From positions 114,822 through 178,821 of the forward strand of contig JBAZNR010000002.1 in the NCBI GenBank assembly GCA_041649175.1: a DNA stretch of 64,000 nucleotides. Direction: 5' to 3'. The first letter of the stretch is position 1. Each line of letters starts with the position of its first letter. Shown in pieces: positions 25,428 through 35,007 of the stretch. A model generated the notes under the pieces. It saw nothing but the letters and a program-made list of their open reading frames with translations. It made no database searches and was not told the origin of the DNA. Made by a program: the position numbers and the translations under genes. Source of the DNA: Candidatus Omnitrophota bacterium. Its GTDB lineage: Bacteria; Omnitrophota; Gorgyraeia; Zapsychrales; JBAZNR01.

Positions 25428-26141
25428 ATGGACAATCTCCCTTACTCTAAGTCAGAATCCTGGAAAATGTTCGATAAGATCTCCGGCCGATATGATCTGC
25501 TCAATCGGCTTTTATCATTTGGGCTGGATATCGGCTGGCGCAAGAAAATCGTCTCCTTTCTGCCCCCAAAAAACGATTTAACCATTCTTGATCTTGCCAC
25601 CGGAACCGGGGATGTTCTGCTTTATCTTTTTGAGCAGACAAAATCCATCAAAATAGCTTACGGCATTGATCTTTCGGAAAAAATGCTTCTGATTGGCCAA
25701 GAAAAGATAAAGACGCGCAAGTTAGAAGCACAGATCATCTTAAAAAACGGCGACATTAATCAAATCCCGTTTGAAGAAAATTATTTTGACGCGGCAACCA
25801 TTGCGTTCGGAATTCGTAACGTGGTCAATCCAAAACAGGTTTTAAGTGAAATGTTGCGTGTTTTAAAGCCGGGCGGACGGGCGATCATATTAGAATTTGC
25901 TATTCCCGAAAACGCTTTAGTGCGCCCCATTTTTACCTTTTATTTGAGAAAAATTTTGCCCGCCGTCGGCGCGCTTATTTCCGGAAATCTTAAAGCCTAT
26001 AAATATCTTAATCAAACGGTAGAAACGTTTATGTACGGCGAAGAATTTTGCCAAGCGATGGGTGCTTGCGGTTTTCTTAATGTCCGCGCTCACCCCCTGA
26101 CGTTTCAAACGGCGATGATCTATACAGGTGAAAAACCCTAA
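25428..26141 (+). CDS. menG: demethylmenaquinone methyltransferase / UbiE-family C-methyltransferase
   Basis: The 237-aa ORF has the UbiE/MenG N-terminus (MFDKISGRYDLLNRLLSFGLD), the SAM motif LDLATGTGD, and VLKPGGRAIILEF. A men gene cluster lies downstream. Confidence 0.8.
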   Translation: MDNLPYSKSESWKMFDKISGRYDLLNRLLSFGLDIGWRKKIVSFLPPKNDLTILDLATGTGDVLLYLFEQTKSIKIAYGIDLSEKMLLIGQEKIKTRKLEAQIILKNGDINQIPFEENYFDAATIAFGIRNVVNPKQVLSEMLRVLKPGGRAIILEFAIPENALVRPIFTFYLRKILPAVGALISGNLKAYKYLNQTVETFMYGEEFCQAMGACGFLNVRAHPLTFQTAMIYTGEKP

Positions 26142-29212: not shown

Positions 29213-29489
29213 ACCAATACGCTATTCAATTCTTGAAATCGTTGCTATCTTTGCCGCAGGAATTCTGCTTTGCGTTGCAATTCCTAAAGGCTTCTTGAAT
29301 GATAAGCCGTTTCTTCTGTGGGCTTCGCTAACGTTATCGCTGTATCTTCTATTAAAAATCCTCCACCGAAAAAATAAAAACATTTTAAAAATGCAACCGG
29401 GATTTAAAATTGTTGCAAATATATTATTGATTGTATGGGCGCTATGCGGAGCGATGTTCTTTTTTCTCACAGTATTTTGTAATTTTTAA
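29202..29489 (+). CDS. hypothetical small membrane protein
   Basis: The 95-aa ORF has 2-3 TM helices and is AT-rich. It overlaps the menD 3' end by 11 nt. I recognise no motifs. Confidence 0.3.
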   Translation: MDAKPIRYSILEIVAIFAAGILLCVAIPKGFLNDKPFLLWASLTLSLYLLLKILHRKNKNILKMQPGFKIVANILLIVWALCGAMFFFLTVFCNF

Positions 29490-29545
29490 AACAAACAGCG
29501 ACTGGCACGTTTTTAGAAGATCAAAAAAAGGAATTATTGTTATCA

Positions 29546-30187
29546 ATGGATAAGAACAACCCAACAACGAAAAAGCGGGATTTTGATAAAGAAGCGGCCA
29601 CCTGGGACACCGCGCAAAAGATCACTTTAGCCAAAAATATCGCCGGGGCTATTTTAAGCCAAGTCAAATTGACAAAAGAAATGGATGTTATGGATTTTGG
29701 CTGCGGCACCGGGCTTTTGGCTTTCCATATTCAGCCCCTGGTCCGCTCGGTCGTCGGTGTCGACAGCTCAAAGGGAATGTTGGATGCTTTTAATACCAAG
29801 ATCCGCCAGAAGGATATCAAAAACGCCAAAACTTCTTTTGTGGATTTAAGCGCGGGAGATGTTTTAAACGGACGCTATCAGGCTATTATTAGCGGTATGA
29901 CGCTTCATCATATTGAAGATGTTCCGGCGCTTTTGAAACGTTTCTTTGAAATTTTAACCAAAGGCGGACAACTCGCGCTGGTAGACTTAGATGAAGAGGG
30001 CGGCCTTTTTCATGAAAACAAAGACGGCGTTTTTCACAACGGGTTTAACCGGGAAAAATTGAAAGGCTTGTTAACGGATGCGGGCTTTGCCGATATCCGC
30101 GACACAACGGCCGCCCAAATGACCAAGTCCGCCGCTAACGGCGCGCTTAGAACATTTTCGATTTTTTTAATAACGGGGAGAAAATGA
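29546..30187 (+). CDS. class I SAM-dependent methyltransferase
   Basis: It has the Rossmann SAM motif MDFGCGTGL and the downstream acidic/hydrophobic pattern (LVDLDEEGG). The start is taken at MDKNNPTT. Confidence 0.7.
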   Translation: MDKNNPTTKKRDFDKEAATWDTAQKITLAKNIAGAILSQVKLTKEMDVMDFGCGTGLLAFHIQPLVRSVVGVDSSKGMLDAFNTKIRQKDIKNAKTSFVDLSAGDVLNGRYQAIISGMTLHHIEDVPALLKRFFEILTKGGQLALVDLDEEGGLFHENKDGVFHNGFNREKLKGLLTDAGFADIRDTTAAQMTKSAANGALRTFSIFLITGRK

Positions 30188-30247
30188 AGGTGAGTGGCGC
30201 GTATTTAAAAAGGTACGTGTCCCGGGAAATTTGTAAAGGAGATATAA

Positions 30248-31102
30248 ATGGCGCCCAAAAGAAAAGAAATTACTAATCCAATTCCACAGCCTCCTTCAGT
30301 AAACCCCGAAAAAGGAATTGAATTGATAAAAAAGCAAATAGATCGCGGCAAGGATTTGCTTGCTAAAAGACCACTAAGAAAAGATGACTATCTTTCATGG
30401 GAAAATATTACACAGGCATGTCTCGAGAAATCGTTTGGTTTAAATTCACCAAATGTAAATAAGGTATTAGATATTGGCAAATACGGTGCTTTTCCTATGG
30501 GGGCAAGCGAAGATTATTGGGAAAATAGTAGGTCTGAGGATCTTTCGTCGCAAATCTCAATGTTAATAAGTCAAATTGAATTGCTTGAAATGGAGATATC
30601 GCTTTCTTCGGATACTAAGAGTGGACCAGTCATTCCTAGTCATTTGCCAGCAATTTCACGGAAAATATTCCTTGTCCATGGACATGATGATGGTATCAAA
30701 GAAGCGACAGCAAGATTTTTAGAGAAGTTGGGTTTAGCGCCAATAATCTTGCATGAGAAGCCAAATCAAGGAAGAACAATCATCGAGAAAATTTCTGATT
30801 ATTCCGATGTAGGCTTTGCAGTTGTGCTGTTAACAGGCGATGATGTTGGCAGAATAAATGATGCAAAATGTGAGAACCTTCTTCCGCGTGCTCGCCAAAA
30901 TGTAGTCCTTGAACTCGGGTATTTTTTAGGAAGAATTGGTCGGCAACGAGTATGTGCTCTCTATCAAAAAGGAGTTGAAATTCCATCAGATTATTCCGGC
31001 GTTCTGTTTATTCCTTTAGATGAGAGTGGTGCCTGGCGTGTGCAGTTGGCTAAGGAAATCAAAGCAACAGGTATTGACTTAGACATGAACAGCGCCATTT
31101 GA
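30248..31102 (+). CDS. two-domain protein: N-terminal domain of unknown family + C-terminal TIR-like nucleotide-binding domain (COG4271/PF10137 type)
   Basis: Residues ~138-275 carry three motif blocks: KIFLVHGHDDGIKEATARFLEKLGLAPIILHE, SDVGFAVVLLTGDDVG, and RQNVVLELGYFLGRIGRQRVCALY. These match the blocks I recall for the 'predicted nucleotide-binding protein containing TIR-like domain' family (FDFAIFVFSPDD / RDNVIFELGLFIGRLG). The N-terminal ~135 aa is helical or coiled-coil (ISMLISQIELLEMEIS), has no TM segment and belongs to no family I recognise. The gene is AT-rich relative to its flanks. Confidence 0.6.
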   Translation: MAPKRKEITNPIPQPPSVNPEKGIELIKKQIDRGKDLLAKRPLRKDDYLSWENITQACLEKSFGLNSPNVNKVLDIGKYGAFPMGASEDYWENSRSEDLSSQISMLISQIELLEMEISLSSDTKSGPVIPSHLPAISRKIFLVHGHDDGIKEATARFLEKLGLAPIILHEKPNQGRTIIEKISDYSDVGFAVVLLTGDDVGRINDAKCENLLPRARQNVVLELGYFLGRIGRQRVCALYQKGVEIPSDYSGVLFIPLDESGAWRVQLAKEIKATGIDLDMNSAI

Positions 31103-31171
31103 AATACTTGCAGAAAACAACTGACGCTATTTTTAAATTTAATTGAATTAAAAAATTTCGATGGAGAAGAA

Positions 31172-32785
31172 ATGAAAAAAATAACTGAATTAAAATTAGG
31201 GTTTAGCGATGCGGAAAATTACAAACGCAAGGAAAATAAAGAGTTGTTTAATGCTATTTTTGTGAAAAATGTTTTTCTCGAGCAGCTAATGAGCCCTAGT
31301 TCATTTTTCTTGATTGGTGAAAAAGGTACGGGAAAAACCGCATATGCCGTCTACTTATCTAATAGTGTTTATCAAGGGAACAAGTCAGAGTTAAAATATA
31401 TCAGAGAAACTGATTATCAAAAATTTGTCAACCTAAAACAAAAGCACCACCTTTTGCTATCGGATTATGAAAGCATATGGAAAGTTATTATCTTGTTACT
31501 ACTAGCAAAGAGTATTAATGTCGAAGAATTAGAAGGCAACCCTTTTAGTAAGAACAAGAAATTTAAGATTATATTAGAAGCAATTGATGAATATTATAAT
31601 CACGCATTCTCACCAGAGATATTAGCAGCTTTGAATTTGATTGAAAATTCAAAGATAGCGGCAGAACTGGTGTCAAAGCATTTAAAGGCAGGAGGCGAGC
31701 AGACTGCCCAAACTTCATTTCAAGAATCACGTTTTCAAGTGAACTTACTTTACTTGCAGCGTGAATTCGAAAGAGCCCTTAGCGACATAAAAACAAAAAC
31801 ACATCATATACTCTTCATCGATGGAATAGATATAAGGCCTGGATCAATTCCTTACGATGAATATCTGGAATGCATCAAGGGCTTAGGCAATGCTATTTGG
31901 AACCTGAACAATGATTTTTTTTCTCAATTAAAATACTCCAATGGTAGGTTTCGTGCAGTATTATTAATACGGCCAGACATATTTAATTCGATCGGTTTGC
32001 AAAATTCTACGAACAAGATATTAGATAATTCAGTTTTTCTTGATTGGAAAACCACATACCCAGATTACCGCCATTCACAAATCTTCGGACTTATTGATAG
32101 ATTATTAAATGCTCAGCAAGGGAAAAAGTTCGAACATGGAGAGGCTTGGGATTTTTATTTCCCTTGGAAATCGCCTACCACAAGTCCAAGCAGAGGTCAT
32201 GACCCATCGTTTTACAAATTACTACGTCTCTCTTATTCAAGACCGCGAGACTTAGTTACAATATTGAAAATTCTTCAACAGGTTGCAATTGAAGATAAAA
32301 CCCAAGAAAATACGTTTTTCTCACTAGAGAACTTTGACAGTGACAAATTTCAAAATCGATATTCTGAATATCTTATGGGAGGAATAAAAGATCAGCTATC
32401 GTTTTACTATACAGACAAAGATTACGAATTCTTTTTAAAATTCTTTAATCATTTTGAAGGTAAAGGTAGATTTGATTACAATGAATATCTATCGGCTTAC
32501 AAGAAATTTACTGAGGACATATTAAATTACCATACAGGAATTCCAGAATTTGTTGATAATCCGGATAAATTCTTACAATTTTTGTATGACACCAATATTC
32601 TTTGCTACATTGAGAATTCAAGATCAAGCAACCCATCTTTTAGCTGGTGCTATCGAGACAGAAGCCCGGCCAATATATCTCCAAAGGTAAAGAGTAACGT
32701 AAGATATGAAATACATTATGGCCTGCTGAAGTCTCTTAATTTAGGATTTGGAAGCAAAAAAAGAAAGAAATATGAAAAAGGGTGA
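31172..32785 (+). CDS. P-loop NTPase of unassigned family (Walker A GEKGTGKT, Walker B ILFIDGID, downstream SRPRD motif)
   Basis: The 537-aa ORF has Walker A at residues 49-56 (nt 31316..31339) and Walker B hhhhDGxD at residues 213-220 (nt ~31808..31831). The two are separated by about 155 aa, indicating an inserted helical region. LLIRPDIF (263-270) is a possible sensor strand, and LSYSRPRDLV (353-362) is a possible Arg sensor. The C-terminal ~170 aa is unassigned. The gene is very AT-rich and sits 70 nt downstream of the TIR-like gene on the same strand. Confidence 0.65.
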   Translation: MKKITELKLGFSDAENYKRKENKELFNAIFVKNVFLEQLMSPSSFFLIGEKGTGKTAYAVYLSNSVYQGNKSELKYIRETDYQKFVNLKQKHHLLLSDYESIWKVIILLLLAKSINVEELEGNPFSKNKKFKIILEAIDEYYNHAFSPEILAALNLIENSKIAAELVSKHLKAGGEQTAQTSFQESRFQVNLLYLQREFERALSDIKTKTHHILFIDGIDIRPGSIPYDEYLECIKGLGNAIWNLNNDFFSQLKYSNGRFRAVLLIRPDIFNSIGLQNSTNKILDNSVFLDWKTTYPDYRHSQIFGLIDRLLNAQQGKKFEHGEAWDFYFPWKSPTTSPSRGHDPSFYKLLRLSYSRPRDLVTILKILQQVAIEDKTQENTFFSLENFDSDKFQNRYSEYLMGGIKDQLSFYYTDKDYEFFLKFFNHFEGKGRFDYNEYLSAYKKFTEDILNYHTGIPEFVDNPDKFLQFLYDTNILCYIENSRSSNPSFSWCYRDRSPANISPKVKSNVRYEIHYGLLKSLNLGFGSKKRKKYEKG

Positions 32786-32859
32786 AAAGGGGGACAGCGC
32801 CCGTTAATTTAATAAATAAAATTCTCGCAAATCGTTATTGACGGAACGGACATAGTTAA

Positions 32860-33465
32860 ATGCAAATATTTCTAAAATCAAAAATTATTTTTATTGCGGC
32901 CTTTTCTCTGGCTTTTTACGGCTGTGTCGGAATCGGAGCACCTATATTAGACCCTTGGACAAATTCTCAAAATGTTGATGGGTTGCTTGCACATAACCGG
33001 CCGCTTCCTGCTGAACTTCTTATTGAAGCTACGATGGAGAATTGCAAAAGGAAAAATGATGAGCTCGGTCTGGCTCTCGCCTATAAAATGTTTGCAAATT
33101 TTTTGGAATCATCAACTGTAAAAAATTGGGAATACCATTATCGAAGAGACGGATTTATAATCGATAAAACAGTGACTTTCGATAACCGCCTGGATAAAGC
33201 CCGCGAATACTGGTATAAATCGTTGCATCTTTATCAAAAAAATAATGCGCATGCCGAAGAGTCCAATATATATGTCAATATTGCCACCTCCGACTTTTTT
33301 ATTAAGAATGATCCTCAAACTGCCTGTCAAAATCTCGACTTAAGCCTTGAGGCTCATGTAAAATTTAGGAAAGATCATCCTGACAAGCCCATTATAATGG
33401 ACAAGAGATTTAAAGATTTTCCTGATTACATCAAAGCCGCAAAAGAACAATTTGAGTGCAAATAA
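32860..33465 (+). CDS. hypothetical secreted protein / possible lipoprotein
   Basis: The 201-aa ORF has an N-terminal signal peptide with a Cys at the end of the h-region (AFSLAFYGCVG, a non-canonical lipobox). It is AT-rich. I recognise no motifs. Confidence 0.4.
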   Translation: MQIFLKSKIIFIAAFSLAFYGCVGIGAPILDPWTNSQNVDGLLAHNRPLPAELLIEATMENCKRKNDELGLALAYKMFANFLESSTVKNWEYHYRRDGFIIDKTVTFDNRLDKAREYWYKSLHLYQKNNAHAEESNIYVNIATSDFFIKNDPQTACQNLDLSLEAHVKFRKDHPDKPIIMDKRFKDFPDYIKAAKEQFECK

Positions 33466-33542
33466 AACAAAACGGGCACAGCCCGTCTCGTCCGCTAAAT
33501 TGCGAAAGGGTCAGTCCTCGATAAGAAAATGAGGCGAATAAA

Positions 33543-33878
33543 ATGAAAAAATTTTTTCTTATATTCGGCTGGTTTGAGATCATCCTTGGCGGTTGTTTAG
33601 GCGTGTTTGCGTTATCCATCAGCCTCTTTGATCTTTTCACGATGCGCGCTGAAGGAGTTTACATCCTTGTTGGAATCTTGTTTTTATTACCGCTTTCTTT
33701 ATTGCTTTTGGTTTCCGGTTTTATGCTCAAAAAGGGAAGCATTATCGGAAAAGCGCTGTCGATCGCGTCGGTTTTGATCATTCTTTTTCTTGTTTTAAGC
33801 TATTCTGCTTTTCTGCAGGATAGGAAAGATCATAGGGAAAAAATAAACACGCGTATTGAAGAGCAGAAGAATAAATAA
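33543..33878 (+). CDS. hypothetical small membrane protein
   Basis: The 111-aa ORF has 3 TM helices and a charged C-terminal tail (DRKDHREKINTRIEEQKNK). Confidence 0.4.
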   Translation: MKKFFLIFGWFEIILGGCLGVFALSISLFDLFTMRAEGVYILVGILFLLPLSLLLLVSGFMLKKGSIIGKALSIASVLIILFLVLSYSAFLQDRKDHREKINTRIEEQKNK

Positions 33879-33882
33879 CCAA

Positions 33883-34022
33883 GATGCAATAACCTATGAG
33901 TAATAATTAGGGAACTACGGTTGATAGGATGAGTTGTGCGTTGTGAGTCGAGTTGTGAGTTTTGGGCGTGGGTAAACCCAAAAACACACAACACAAAACC
34001 TGACACAAAACTCATAACGCAT
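33883..34022. repeat. ~140-bp imperfect palindrome with strand-skewed GT-rich / CA-rich halves
   Basis: The left half is GATGCAATAACCTATGAGT...GAGTTGTGCGTTGTGAGTCGAGTTGTGAGTTTTGGGCGTGGGT. The right half is ACCCAAAAACACACAACACAAAACCTGACACAAAACTCATAACGCATC. They are approximately reverse-complementary, with a 7-bp core stem TTTTGGG/CCCAAAA around the loop CGTGGGTAAA. Confidence 0.45.
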
Positions 34023-34041
34023 CCCAATAACCAATAAAAAT

Positions 34042-35007
34042 ATGTTAAAAACTACCATCGATTATCTTTTTTATAGTGTTTTAAAGCTGCCGCTCGACTC
34101 ACCCTCGGTTGAAATGGCGAACTTTTTTATCTACGATTCCATCAAGATCCTTTTGCTTTTATTTTCCATGATCTGGGTGATCGGGATCTTGCGCACCTTT
34201 GTTTCGCAAGAGAAGATCAAAGGCTGGCTGGGCCGCAGTAAAGGCGTGGGGAATTTATTCGCCTCAATTTTTGGCGCTATTACACCGTTTTGTTCGTGCT
34301 CGTCCATTCCGCTTTTTATCAGCTTTTTGAAAGCCGGTGTTCCTTTGGGCGTGACATTTTCCTTTTTGATCACCTCACCTCTGGTCAATGAATATCTGGT
34401 CGTTTTGATGATCGGGTTTTTCGGTTGGAAAATAGCCATGCTTTACGCGTTTTTCGGGATTTTTATCGGCGTTATGGCGGGAATGGTTTTAGGAATGATG
34501 AAACTAGAAAAAAATCTGGCGGCCGATATTTTTAACGCGCAGTACGCCGAAACGCCCGCAGCAGTTGCGACATACAAAAACTTCAAAGCGCGAGTTTTGT
34601 TTGGTTCAGGCGAGGCTGTCACGATCGTGAAACAACTTTGGGGCTGGGTTTTAGTGGGTGTCGCCATGGGCGCGTGGATCCACAATTACATTCCGCAAGA
34701 AATGGTCAATACCGTGGTGAGCAAAGCCGGGATCTTAGGCGTTCCGGCGGCGGTTGCTTTAGGCGTTCCGATGTACGGCGGCTGCGCGGCCATTGTTCCG
34801 GTGGCGGTTGTTTTATTCCAAAAGGGTTTTCCGTTAGGGACGGCGCTTTCCTTTATGATGGCGGTTTCCGCCCTTAGTTTGCCGGAAGCCATTATGCTTC
34901 GCCGGGTGATGAATTTGCGATTAGTAATCATCTTTTTTGCCGTGACAACCTTAGGTATTATCATTACGGGATATTTGTTCAACTTTTTGCAGGGGATCAT
35001 TGTTTAA
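34042..35007 (+). CDS. DUF318/ArsP-family predicted permease
   Basis: The 321-aa polytopic ORF has the family-typical [10 protein letters not shown] motif, with a second half repeating the topology. The true start may be the internal Met (~34114). Confidence 0.6.

What the first reader, a model, noticed from the sequence alone, without database searches (positions are those of the whole stretch)
30248..32785. Candidate uncharacterised two-gene defence module: TIR-like nucleotide-binding protein + orphan P-loop NTPase
Two co-directional genes separated by 70 nt interrupt an otherwise housekeeping menaquinone operon. Gene 1 carries a C-terminal domain that matches, motif block by motif block, the COG4271/PF10137 'TIR-like' family (LVHGHDD..., VGFAVVLLTGDD, NVVLELGYFLGRIG). 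TIR and TIR-like domains are established NAD+-degrading or signal-producing effectors in Thoeris, CBASS, Pycsar-like and Avs-type immunity. Here the TIR-like domain is fused to an unassigned ~135-aa helical N-terminal domain. Gene 2 is a 537-aa P-loop NTPase with a clean Walker A/B but no family I can name. TIR effector plus NTPase sensor/switch is the logic of several known anti-phage systems, but this domain combination and architecture do not match Thoeris (there is no SIR2/SLOG ThsA), CBASS (no CD-NTase), or STAND-type Avs (the NTPase is too small and has no repeats). Location, AT-rich composition and domain content together make this the best candidate in the window for a new defence system.
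Basis: partly seen in the sequence, partly recalled or inferred. Interest (0 to 1): 0.85.

Follow-up and report, generated by a model that had tools for sequence, protein, structure and literature searches.

The report
FunZ and TIR-like defence genes, unlinked
The two genes are real and probably anti-phage, but they belong to two already catalogued stand-alone families (phage P2's FunZ and the PADLOC candidate PDC-S35) that happen to sit side by side, so this is not a new two-gene system.

Summary
Gene 1 has a PF10137 TIR domain (E 3e-36) with the NADase residues intact. It matches PADLOC's single-gene candidate family PDC-S35 over its full length (E 1.8e-77). Gene 2 is not an orphan. It is 52.6% identical over 99% of its length to coliphage P2 Fun(Z) (E 5e-179), a single-gene abortive-infection protein shown to block T5-like, T-even and other phages, mechanism unknown. 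It also passes NCBIfam's Sll1717-family model. The pairing is not conserved. About 97 FunZ loci held no gene-1 relative: 80 species genomes, 12 viral contigs, P2 and the 86%, 76% and 67% relatives. About 130 gene-1 loci held no FunZ. Neither family has any recurrent neighbour. In related Omnitrophota the menD-menB gap carries different cargo. Verdict: two independent mobile defence genes in a variable site, each a new member of a known family. Interest is low. What remains open is the unsolved FunZ mechanism and the untested PDC-S35 family.

The parts
30248..31102 (+). Gene 1: 284-aa protein of the PADLOC candidate family PDC-S35, with an N-terminal helical domain and a C-terminal PF10137 TIR-like domain
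   Evidence: ORF. PDLC05005 E 1.8e-77 over aa 24-282. PF10137 E 3e-36. phrog_16442 E 1.4e-54, full length. More than 7,500 homologues of ~280 aa.
30305..30610 (+). Gene 1 N-terminal helical domain (aa 20-121: helices 20-39, 45-63, 68-74 and a long helix 88-121). Presumed sensor or oligomerisation module.
   Evidence: AlphaFold model, pLDDT 83-93 over this part. Conserved W51, F63-G64, S67, N69, G77, W91. No Pfam match and no significant PDB fold match. Replaced by other N-termini in many phage-borne relatives.
30662..31096 (+). Gene 1 TIR-like (Cap12/PycTIR-type) domain, aa 139-283
   Evidence: Pfam. Sequence matches to solved Cap12 9lmq and 7un8 and PycTIR 8jsj. Foldseek top hits are the TIR domains of TIR-STING, E 7e-6 to 3e-4.
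30893..30913 (+). Predicted NADase active-site motif R216-Q-N218-V-V-L-E222. D248, encoded at 30989-30991, completes the site.
   Evidence: Aligns to SfSTING R78/N80/E84 and D110 (residue roles from PMC9402430). R216, N218 and E222 are invariant and D248 is >=90% conserved in alignment A2.
31103..31171 (.). 69-nt AT-rich spacer with an RBS (GGAGAAGAAATG) for gene 2 and no terminator-like hairpin. A weak promoter-like match lies at 31080-31108.
   Evidence: Sequence. Pattern scan, where the number of promoter-like sites is no higher than in shuffles.
31172..32785 (+). Gene 2: FunZ homologue, a 537-aa ORC/Cdc6-type AAA+ ATPase of the P2 Fun(Z) / Sll1717 family
31316..31339 (+). FunZ Walker A (G49-E-K-G-T-G-K55-T56)
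   Evidence: Invariant in A1 and A3, including the P2 Fun(Z) row of A1.
31811..31831 (+). FunZ Walker B region (L214-F-I-D217-G-I-D220)
   Evidence: D217 and D220 invariant. Lies on strand 211-217 of the model.
32240..32251 (+). FunZ invariant R357-P-R359-D360 motif at the start of a lid-domain helix. Candidate sensor-2 or arginine element.
   Evidence: Invariant in A1 and A3. Helix 358-375 in the model. The functional assignment is inference.
32860..33465 (+). AT-rich orphan ORF (201 aa, lipoprotein-like N-terminus) directly downstream. Possibly part of the same acquired patch, with no evidence that it belongs functionally.
   Evidence: GC 0.373, GC3 0.342. No significant hit in Pfam, PADLOC, NCBIfam or PHROGs.

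Best explanation
The locus holds two independent, horizontally acquired, single-gene anti-phage genes. They landed next to each other in a variable cargo site between menD and menB of a Candidatus Omnitrophota genome. Gene 2 is a FunZ protein, the family of coliphage P2 Fun(Z). P2 Fun(Z) on its own aborts infection by T5-like, T-even, Vequintavirinae and Felixounavirus phages. Its fold is an ORC/Cdc6/TnsC-like AAA+ ATPase with lid and helical C-terminal domains and no recognisable nuclease or other effector. My inferred mechanism is that FunZ is an ATP-driven switch. It would oligomerise, probably on DNA or a replication-associated phage product as its structural relatives do, and so block phage DNA replication or kill the cell. 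The FUdR sensitivity of P2 lysogens points the same way, towards DNA and thymidylate metabolism. Gene 1 is a member of PDC-S35. Its N-terminal helical domain is inferred to sense a phage cue or drive self-assembly. That would bring the Cap12/PycTIR-type TIR domains together to complete the NADase site (R216, N218, E222, with D248 from the partner subunit) and deplete NAD+, aborting infection. Shown: the family identities, folds, conserved catalytic residues, stand-alone distribution and foreign composition. Inferred: the triggers, oligomerisation, NADase activity, and any activity in this particular host.
Confidence: 0.8

Rival explanations
1. One reading: the two genes form one obligate two-component system in which the FunZ-like NTPase senses infection and activates the TIR-like NADase, or the reverse.
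Against: No co-occurrence in ~97 FunZ loci or ~130 gene-1 loci, including the closest relatives of each. P2 Fun(Z) works as a cloned single gene. PADLOC classes gene 1's family as a single-gene candidate. Both have separate full-length PHROG families.
Confidence: 0.05
2. Independent systems that are nonetheless co-transcribed and act synergistically or as back-up layers in this host. This would be a mini defence islet with functional epistasis but no physical coupling.
For: The tight spacing without a terminator permits one transcript. FunZ homologues are sometimes found beside other defence genes: AbiEii, PIN, HEPN, AbiJ, RloB, SoFic, pAgo, R-M.
Against: There is no specific evidence for it. 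The rest of the window is housekeeping and has no larger island. It cannot be distinguished from simple adjacency with sequence data.
Confidence: 0.1
3. One or both genes are not defence genes in this organism. They could be decaying passengers, or domesticated for a cellular role such as nucleotide or NAD signalling.
For: Close gene-1 relatives sit among ordinary cellular genes. PDC-S35 is unvalidated. There are no mobile-element hallmarks at this site.
Against: Both ORFs are intact, with all catalytic and Walker residues conserved. Both families are carried by phages. The FunZ prototype is experimentally defensive. The composition is foreign and the site is variable.
Confidence: 0.05

Closest known systems
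Bacteriophage P2 Fun(Z) (Z/fun), a single-gene abortive-infection system; NCBIfam NF047389 'P-loop ATPase, Sll1717 family'; phrog_13260
   Same: Full-length homology (52.6% identity, 99% coverage) and the same length (537 against 528 aa). Identical Walker A and B and the RPRD motif. AT-rich, stand-alone cargo gene.
   Different: The host is an Omnitrophota chromosome, not a P2-like prophage, and the gene sits in a metabolic operon gap rather than between phage tail genes. No phenotype is known here. The target phages must differ.
PADLOC phage-defence candidate PDC-S35 (single-gene); phrog_16442
   Same: A full-length profile match covering both the N-terminal helical domain and the TIR-like domain (E 1.8e-77). 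Stand-alone distribution with no conserved partner.
   Different: Nothing architectural differs. The family is only a computational candidate, with no experimental validation found.
Cap12 (TIR-STING) of CBASS and PycTIR of Pycsar, the characterised PF10137 TIR NADase effectors
   Same: The same TIR subfamily and fold. The catalytic Arg/Asn/Glu and the trans-acting Asp are conserved. It therefore probably works as an oligomerisation-activated NADase.
   Different: There is no STING, SAVED or cyclic-nucleotide-binding domain. NCBIfam Cap12 scores 39 bits against a cutoff of 450. No CD-NTase or cyclase is nearby. The domain order is reversed, with the TIR at the C-terminus after a novel helical domain.
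ORC/Cdc6, TnsC, MuB and archaeal 'Arch_ATPase' AAA+ proteins; STAND-like defence ATPases (BrxC, Avs5, RdrA)
   Different: Sequence identity is only 10-16%, and there is no PDB homologue by sequence. FunZ has no repeat or sensor arms and no fused effector domain. It has a family-specific C-terminal region and a low-confidence insert at aa 147-185.
DS-41 (DefensePredictor-validated system; NCBIfam NF053860)
   Same: Weak similarity limited to the N-terminal P-loop region, aa 24-167, E 2.9e-6. It is also a validated anti-phage P-loop protein with wide taxonomic spread (PMC13092281).
   Different: It scores 26.5 bits against a cutoff of 370, so FunZ is not a member. The remainder of the protein is unrelated.

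Membership tests
FunZ (P2 Fun(Z) / NF047389 Sll1717-family P-loop ATPase) | Full-length sequence homology to the prototype P2 Fun(Z) | tested here: met
   tblastn 52.6% identity over residues 1-530 of 537, E 5e-179. The identical protein is named funZ by NCBI.
FunZ (P2 Fun(Z) / NF047389 Sll1717-family P-loop ATPase) | Score above the curated NCBIfam cutoff across the whole model | tested here: met
   221.9 bits against a cutoff of 75, model positions 1-454 of 454.
FunZ (P2 Fun(Z) / NF047389 Sll1717-family P-loop ATPase) | Conserved Walker A and B and family-specific invariant motifs | tested here: met
   GxKGTGKT, DGxD, RPD and RPRD are invariant in alignments that include P2 Fun(Z).
FunZ (P2 Fun(Z) / NF047389 Sll1717-family P-loop ATPase) | Acts as a single gene with no conserved partner | tested here: met
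   It is alone in P2. No neighbour family recurs in more than 3-4 of the FunZ loci examined.
FunZ (P2 Fun(Z) / NF047389 Sll1717-family P-loop ATPase) | Abortive-infection phenotype against phages | not testable with these tools
   Known only for P2 Fun/Z (PMC8594841). It would need plaque assays.
PADLOC PDC-S35 (single-gene defence candidate) | Full-length match to a PDC-S35 profile | tested here: met
   PDLC05005 E 1.8e-77, aa 24-282 against profile positions 7-261 of 264. Four further PDC-S35 models also hit.
PADLOC PDC-S35 (single-gene defence candidate) | Stand-alone gene | tested here: met
   No recurrent neighbour in 81 loci. The contexts of close relatives vary.
PF10137 Cap12/PycTIR-type TIR NADase domain | Pfam gathering threshold and TIR fold | tested here: met
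   124.5 bits against 24.7. Foldseek top hits are the TIR domains of TIR-STING.
PF10137 Cap12/PycTIR-type TIR NADase domain | Catalytic Glu and NAD-pocket residues (SfSTING R78, N80, E84, D110) | tested here: met
   They align to R216, N218, E222 and D248, which are invariant or >=90% conserved in the family.
PF10137 Cap12/PycTIR-type TIR NADase domain | NAD+ hydrolase activity | not testable with these tools
   Needs a biochemical assay.
CBASS (Cap12 effector) or Pycsar (PycTIR effector) | Cyclic-nucleotide sensor domain (STING, SAVED or cNMP-binding) fused to the TIR, and an adjacent CD-NTase or cyclase | tested here: not met
   NCBIfam Cap12 models score 39 and 33 bits against a cutoff of 450, on the TIR part only. 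The N-domain has no such match. No cyclase or CD-NTase family appears in the window surveys.
Thoeris | TIR protein (ThsB) paired with a signal-activated effector (ThsA or another) | tested here: not met
   There is no conserved partner of any kind next to gene-1 relatives. The TIR subtype is PF10137, not ThsB-type PF08937.
STAND / Avs-type NTPase sensors | STAND NTPase followed by repeat or sensor arms, with a fused effector domain | tested here: not met
   No co-occurrence in ~97 FunZ loci or ~130 gene-1 loci.

The most novel reading that the evidence does not exclude
In this lineage a FunZ ATPase and a PDC-S35 TIR protein have recently been joined into one operon and have begun to work together, for example with FunZ activation feeding into TIR-mediated NAD+ depletion. 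That would be a newly forming composite system caught at its origin. Separately, and independent of the pairing: FunZ, conserved at ~50% identity from coliphage P2 to Omnitrophota and Methanosarcina, may act by a still-unknown and possibly new AAA+-based abortive mechanism.
Probability: 0.05. Interest if true: 0.6.

Novelty: new member of a known kind. Interest (0 to 1): 0.2.

Why it matters
The result removes a false lead. What looked like a new TIR-plus-NTPase immune system is two catalogued single-gene families that happen to be adjacent. Three things of modest value remain. (1) It extends the classical P2 Fun(Z) abortive-infection family to Omnitrophota and shows it is spread across many bacterial phyla and at least one archaeon at unusually high identity. 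That makes FunZ an attractive target for mechanistic work, since its mechanism is still unknown. (2) It gives a structural hypothesis for FunZ (an ORC/Cdc6/TnsC-like AAA+ switch) and for PDC-S35 (a helical sensor plus a Cap12-type NADase with an intact active site). (3) It identifies the menD-menB gap as a cargo hotspot in this lineage.

Tried and rejected
- Conserved-pair hypothesis: rejected by two-way neighbourhood tests and by closest-relative look-ups. The 47-aa fragment upstream of the 76% FunZ relative was checked and is not a TIR-like C-terminus.
- Any other conserved partner for either family: none found by all-vs-all clustering of flanking ORFs, nor by Pfam or PADLOC surveys of 112 nearest FunZ neighbours.
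- CBASS, Pycsar, Thoeris and Avs membership: rejected (see the membership tests).
- Insertion signatures: no tRNA, no convincing flanking direct or inverted repeats, and no integrase in the window surveys.
- Promoter and terminator scan: counts no higher than in shuffles, so uninformative.
- PDB sequence search for FunZ: no hit at E <= 1.
- Literature searches for 'PDC-S35' and 'Sll1717': zero papers. 'FunZ' returned nothing mechanistic.
Redone with alignment A3.
- Weak PADLOC hits (mad3, mad8, AriA) somewhere in the window: I could not place them among the 20 ORFs tested. I treated them as generic domain matches and did not pursue them.
Full report
**Observation.** The ORF list confirms two co-directional genes on the + strand: gene 1 at 30248-31102 (284 aa) and gene 2 at 31172-32785 (537 aa). 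They are separated by 69 nt, and each has its own ribosome-binding site. Upstream lie menF, menD, a small membrane ORF and a SAM methyltransferase. Downstream lie an orphan lipoprotein-like ORF, a small membrane ORF, an ArsP-type permease whose end overlaps menB, then menA, menC and menE. The two genes are compositionally foreign. GC is 0.396 and 0.340 and GC3 is 0.305 and 0.318, against GC3 0.38-0.47 in the men genes. Their codon-usage distance from the men gene pool is roughly double that of the men genes themselves. The sequence-level observation is therefore confirmed.

**Gene 1.** Pfam gives PF10137 (CAP12/Pycsar effector TIR) at E 3e-36 over aa 139-258.
- PADLOC-DB matches the whole protein (aa 24-282) to PDC-S35 at E 1.8e-77. 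PDC-S35 is one of PADLOC's single-gene 'phage defence candidates'.
- PHROGs has a matching full-length family of unknown function, phrog_16442.
- More than 7,500 homologues of about 280 aa share the same two-domain length, and the N-terminal domain has its own invariant residues.
- The AlphaFold model (pLDDT 78) shows a helical N-domain (aa 20-121), a disordered linker and a flavodoxin-like TIR domain.
- Foldseek's top PDB matches are the TIR domains of the TIR-STING (Cap12) filaments 9lmq, 9lmr and 7un8. Nothing matches the N-domain.
- The HMMER alignment to SfSTING places its NAD-pocket residues R78 and N80, catalytic E84 and trans-acting D110 (roles from PMC9402430) on R216, N218, E222 and D248 of gene 1. 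These are invariant or nearly invariant in the family.
- The NCBIfam Cap12 models score only 33-39 bits against a cutoff of 450. No cyclase or CD-NTase is present in the window surveys. So this is not a CBASS or Pycsar effector.

**Gene 2.** The 'orphan' label is wrong.
- NCBIfam NF047389 ('P-loop ATPase, Sll1717 family') matches end to end at 221.9 bits against a cutoff of 75.
- The identical protein in the public collection is called 'funZ protein' and comes from a 659-kb contig of a Candidatus Omnitrophota MAG. Gene 1's identical protein lies on a contig of the same length.
- tblastn against phage genomes gives 52.6% identity over 99% of the protein to bacteriophage P2 Fun(Z), E 5e-179.
- The P2 record describes fun(Z) as a non-essential lysogenic-conversion gene whose clone blocks T5 growth and confers FUdR sensitivity. 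It stands alone, on the opposite strand, between tail genes G and FI.
- The BASEL study tested Fun/Z as a single-gene Abi system. It inhibits all tested Markadamsvirinae, Tevenvirinae and Vequintavirinae plus a Felixounavirus, 'via an unknown mechanism' (PMC8594841).
- I found no later mechanistic paper, and no solved structure is related by sequence.
- No nuclease or other effector domain is recognisable.

The tests were as follows.

| Loci examined | Source | Partner found |
|---|---|---|
| 80 FunZ loci, ±6 kb, 46-65% identical | Species-representative genomes of very diverse phyla, including Methanosarcina | No gene-1 relative (tblastn; phmmer best E 0.2) |
| 12 FunZ loci | Viral contigs | None |
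| FunZ relative at 86% | Mobile-element island with AbiEii, HTH, PIN, integrase, relaxase | None |
| FunZ relative at 76% | Short contigs; the upstream gene fragment is unrelated to gene 1 | None |
| FunZ relative at 67% | A DUF3800 gene lies upstream | None |
| 81 gene-1 loci, 52 with ≥1.7 kb on at least one side | Metagenome contigs (80) plus the P0128 locus L083, which is listed again in the last row | No FunZ |
| 44 gene-1 loci | Viral contigs | No FunZ |
| Gene-1 relatives at 73%, 70%, 70% and 62% | Mostly housekeeping or unknown neighbours | No FunZ |

All-vs-all clustering of flanking ORFs finds no recurrent partner for either family. Among the 112 nearest FunZ neighbours, no Pfam family occurs more than three times. 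The neighbours mix housekeeping genes with scattered integrases, HEPN, AbiJ, RloB, SLATT, type I R-M methylases, SoFic, pAgo and PDC families. That is the signature of stand-alone mobile defence cargo. The pairing in this window is therefore idiosyncratic.

**The site.** In three related genomes found through MenD, the order POR, trxB, ubiE, menF, menD, gap, menB, menA, menC, menE is kept. The menD-menB gap carries different genes in each: a response regulator and LysM amidase, a Y1 transposase, or a response regulator and an EF-G-like GTPase. None of them has the TIR-like gene or FunZ. This gap is a variable cargo spot. I found no tRNA, integrase or flanking repeats, and the rest of the window is housekeeping.

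**Mechanism.**
- Shown: the family identities, the folds, intact catalytic and Walker motifs, stand-alone distribution and foreign composition.
- Inferred for gene 1: the helical N-domain senses a phage cue or nucleates assembly. TIR-TIR packing then completes the NADase site, as in TIR-STING filaments, and NAD+ depletion aborts infection.
- Inferred for FunZ: it is an ATP-dependent oligomerising switch of the initiator/TnsC/MuB kind, probably acting on DNA or a replication-linked phage product. This is consistent with its breadth against phages that remodel host DNA and with the FUdR phenotype noted in the P2 record.
- The 69-nt gap without a terminator means co-transcription is possible. I give about 5% to a truly coupled system and about 10% to non-obligate synergy.

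**Comparison and novelty.** Gene 2 is a new member of the FunZ family, whose prototype has been experimentally validated. Gene 1 is a new member of PADLOC's PDC-S35 candidate family. Neither CBASS, Pycsar, Thoeris nor Avs membership holds. The finding is thus 'new member of a known kind'. The residual interest lies in the unsolved FunZ mechanism, its striking cross-phylum conservation, and the untested PDC-S35 family.

**Verdict.** Observation confirmed. Interpretation partly supported: the defence content is right, but 'orphan', 'two-gene module' and 'new system' are not. Interest 0.2.

Noticed in passing
window 29213-34999 (between menD and menB); loci L164-L168: The menD-menB gap is a variable cargo site in this Omnitrophota lineage. 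Three relatives with otherwise identical POR-trxB-ubiE-menF-menD...menB-menA-menC-menE synteny carry different genes there, including a Y1 (IS200/IS605-type) transposase.
   Followed up: partly
loci L002-L081, L169-L180; P2 locus L001:4001-5587: FunZ is unusually conserved for a defence protein. It shows 46-65% identity over its full length across more than 15 bacterial phyla and an archaeon (Methanosarcina, L049), and 52.6% to coliphage P2. This implies wide horizontal spread under strong constraint.
   Followed up: partly
window 32860-33465 (+): An AT-rich 201-aa ORF with a lipoprotein-like N-terminus lies directly after funZ. It has no significant hit in Pfam, PADLOC, NCBIfam or PHROGs and may be part of the same acquired patch.
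   Followed up: partly
loci L182, L184-L189, L192, L195-L200 and others (viral contigs): Many phage-borne relatives of gene 1 match only the TIR part (aa ~134-284). The N-terminal domain is therefore exchanged within the wider family, as expected for a modular sensor.
   Followed up: no
window 31610-31726 (FunZ aa 147-185): A low-confidence (pLDDT < 50) helical insert lies between Walker A and Walker B in the FunZ model. It may be analogous to the initiator-specific insert of ORC/Cdc6/DnaA-clade AAA+ proteins.
   Followed up: no
window, ORFs not located (outside 29537-33465): The PADLOC survey of all window ORFs gave moderate hits to mad3 (E 1.9e-28), mad8 (2.8e-11) and AriA (6e-10). They were not among the 20 ORFs then scanned individually and are probably generic domain matches. 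The two mad2 hits are plain SAM methyltransferases.
   Followed up: partly
locus L082 (contig of the 86% FunZ relative P0002): This FunZ sits in a conjugative or integrative element with AbiEii, an HTH regulator, a DUF4062/HATPase/Fic-like protein, a PIN toxin, a tyrosine integrase, T5orf172, a TrwC relaxase and a coupling protein. It is a clear defence-cargo context.
   Followed up: no
locus L231:1276-2118: The 67% FunZ relative has a 280-aa DUF3800 gene immediately upstream. That gene has the same size and position as gene 1 here but belongs to an unrelated family.
   Followed up: no
window 29537-30187 (+): A second class-I SAM methyltransferase lies in the men gap, in addition to the ubiE/menG-like gene at 25428-26141. 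Its best NCBIfam similarity is a sub-threshold match to the corrinoid-protein-associated methyltransferase CpaM. Its role is unknown.
   Followed up: no
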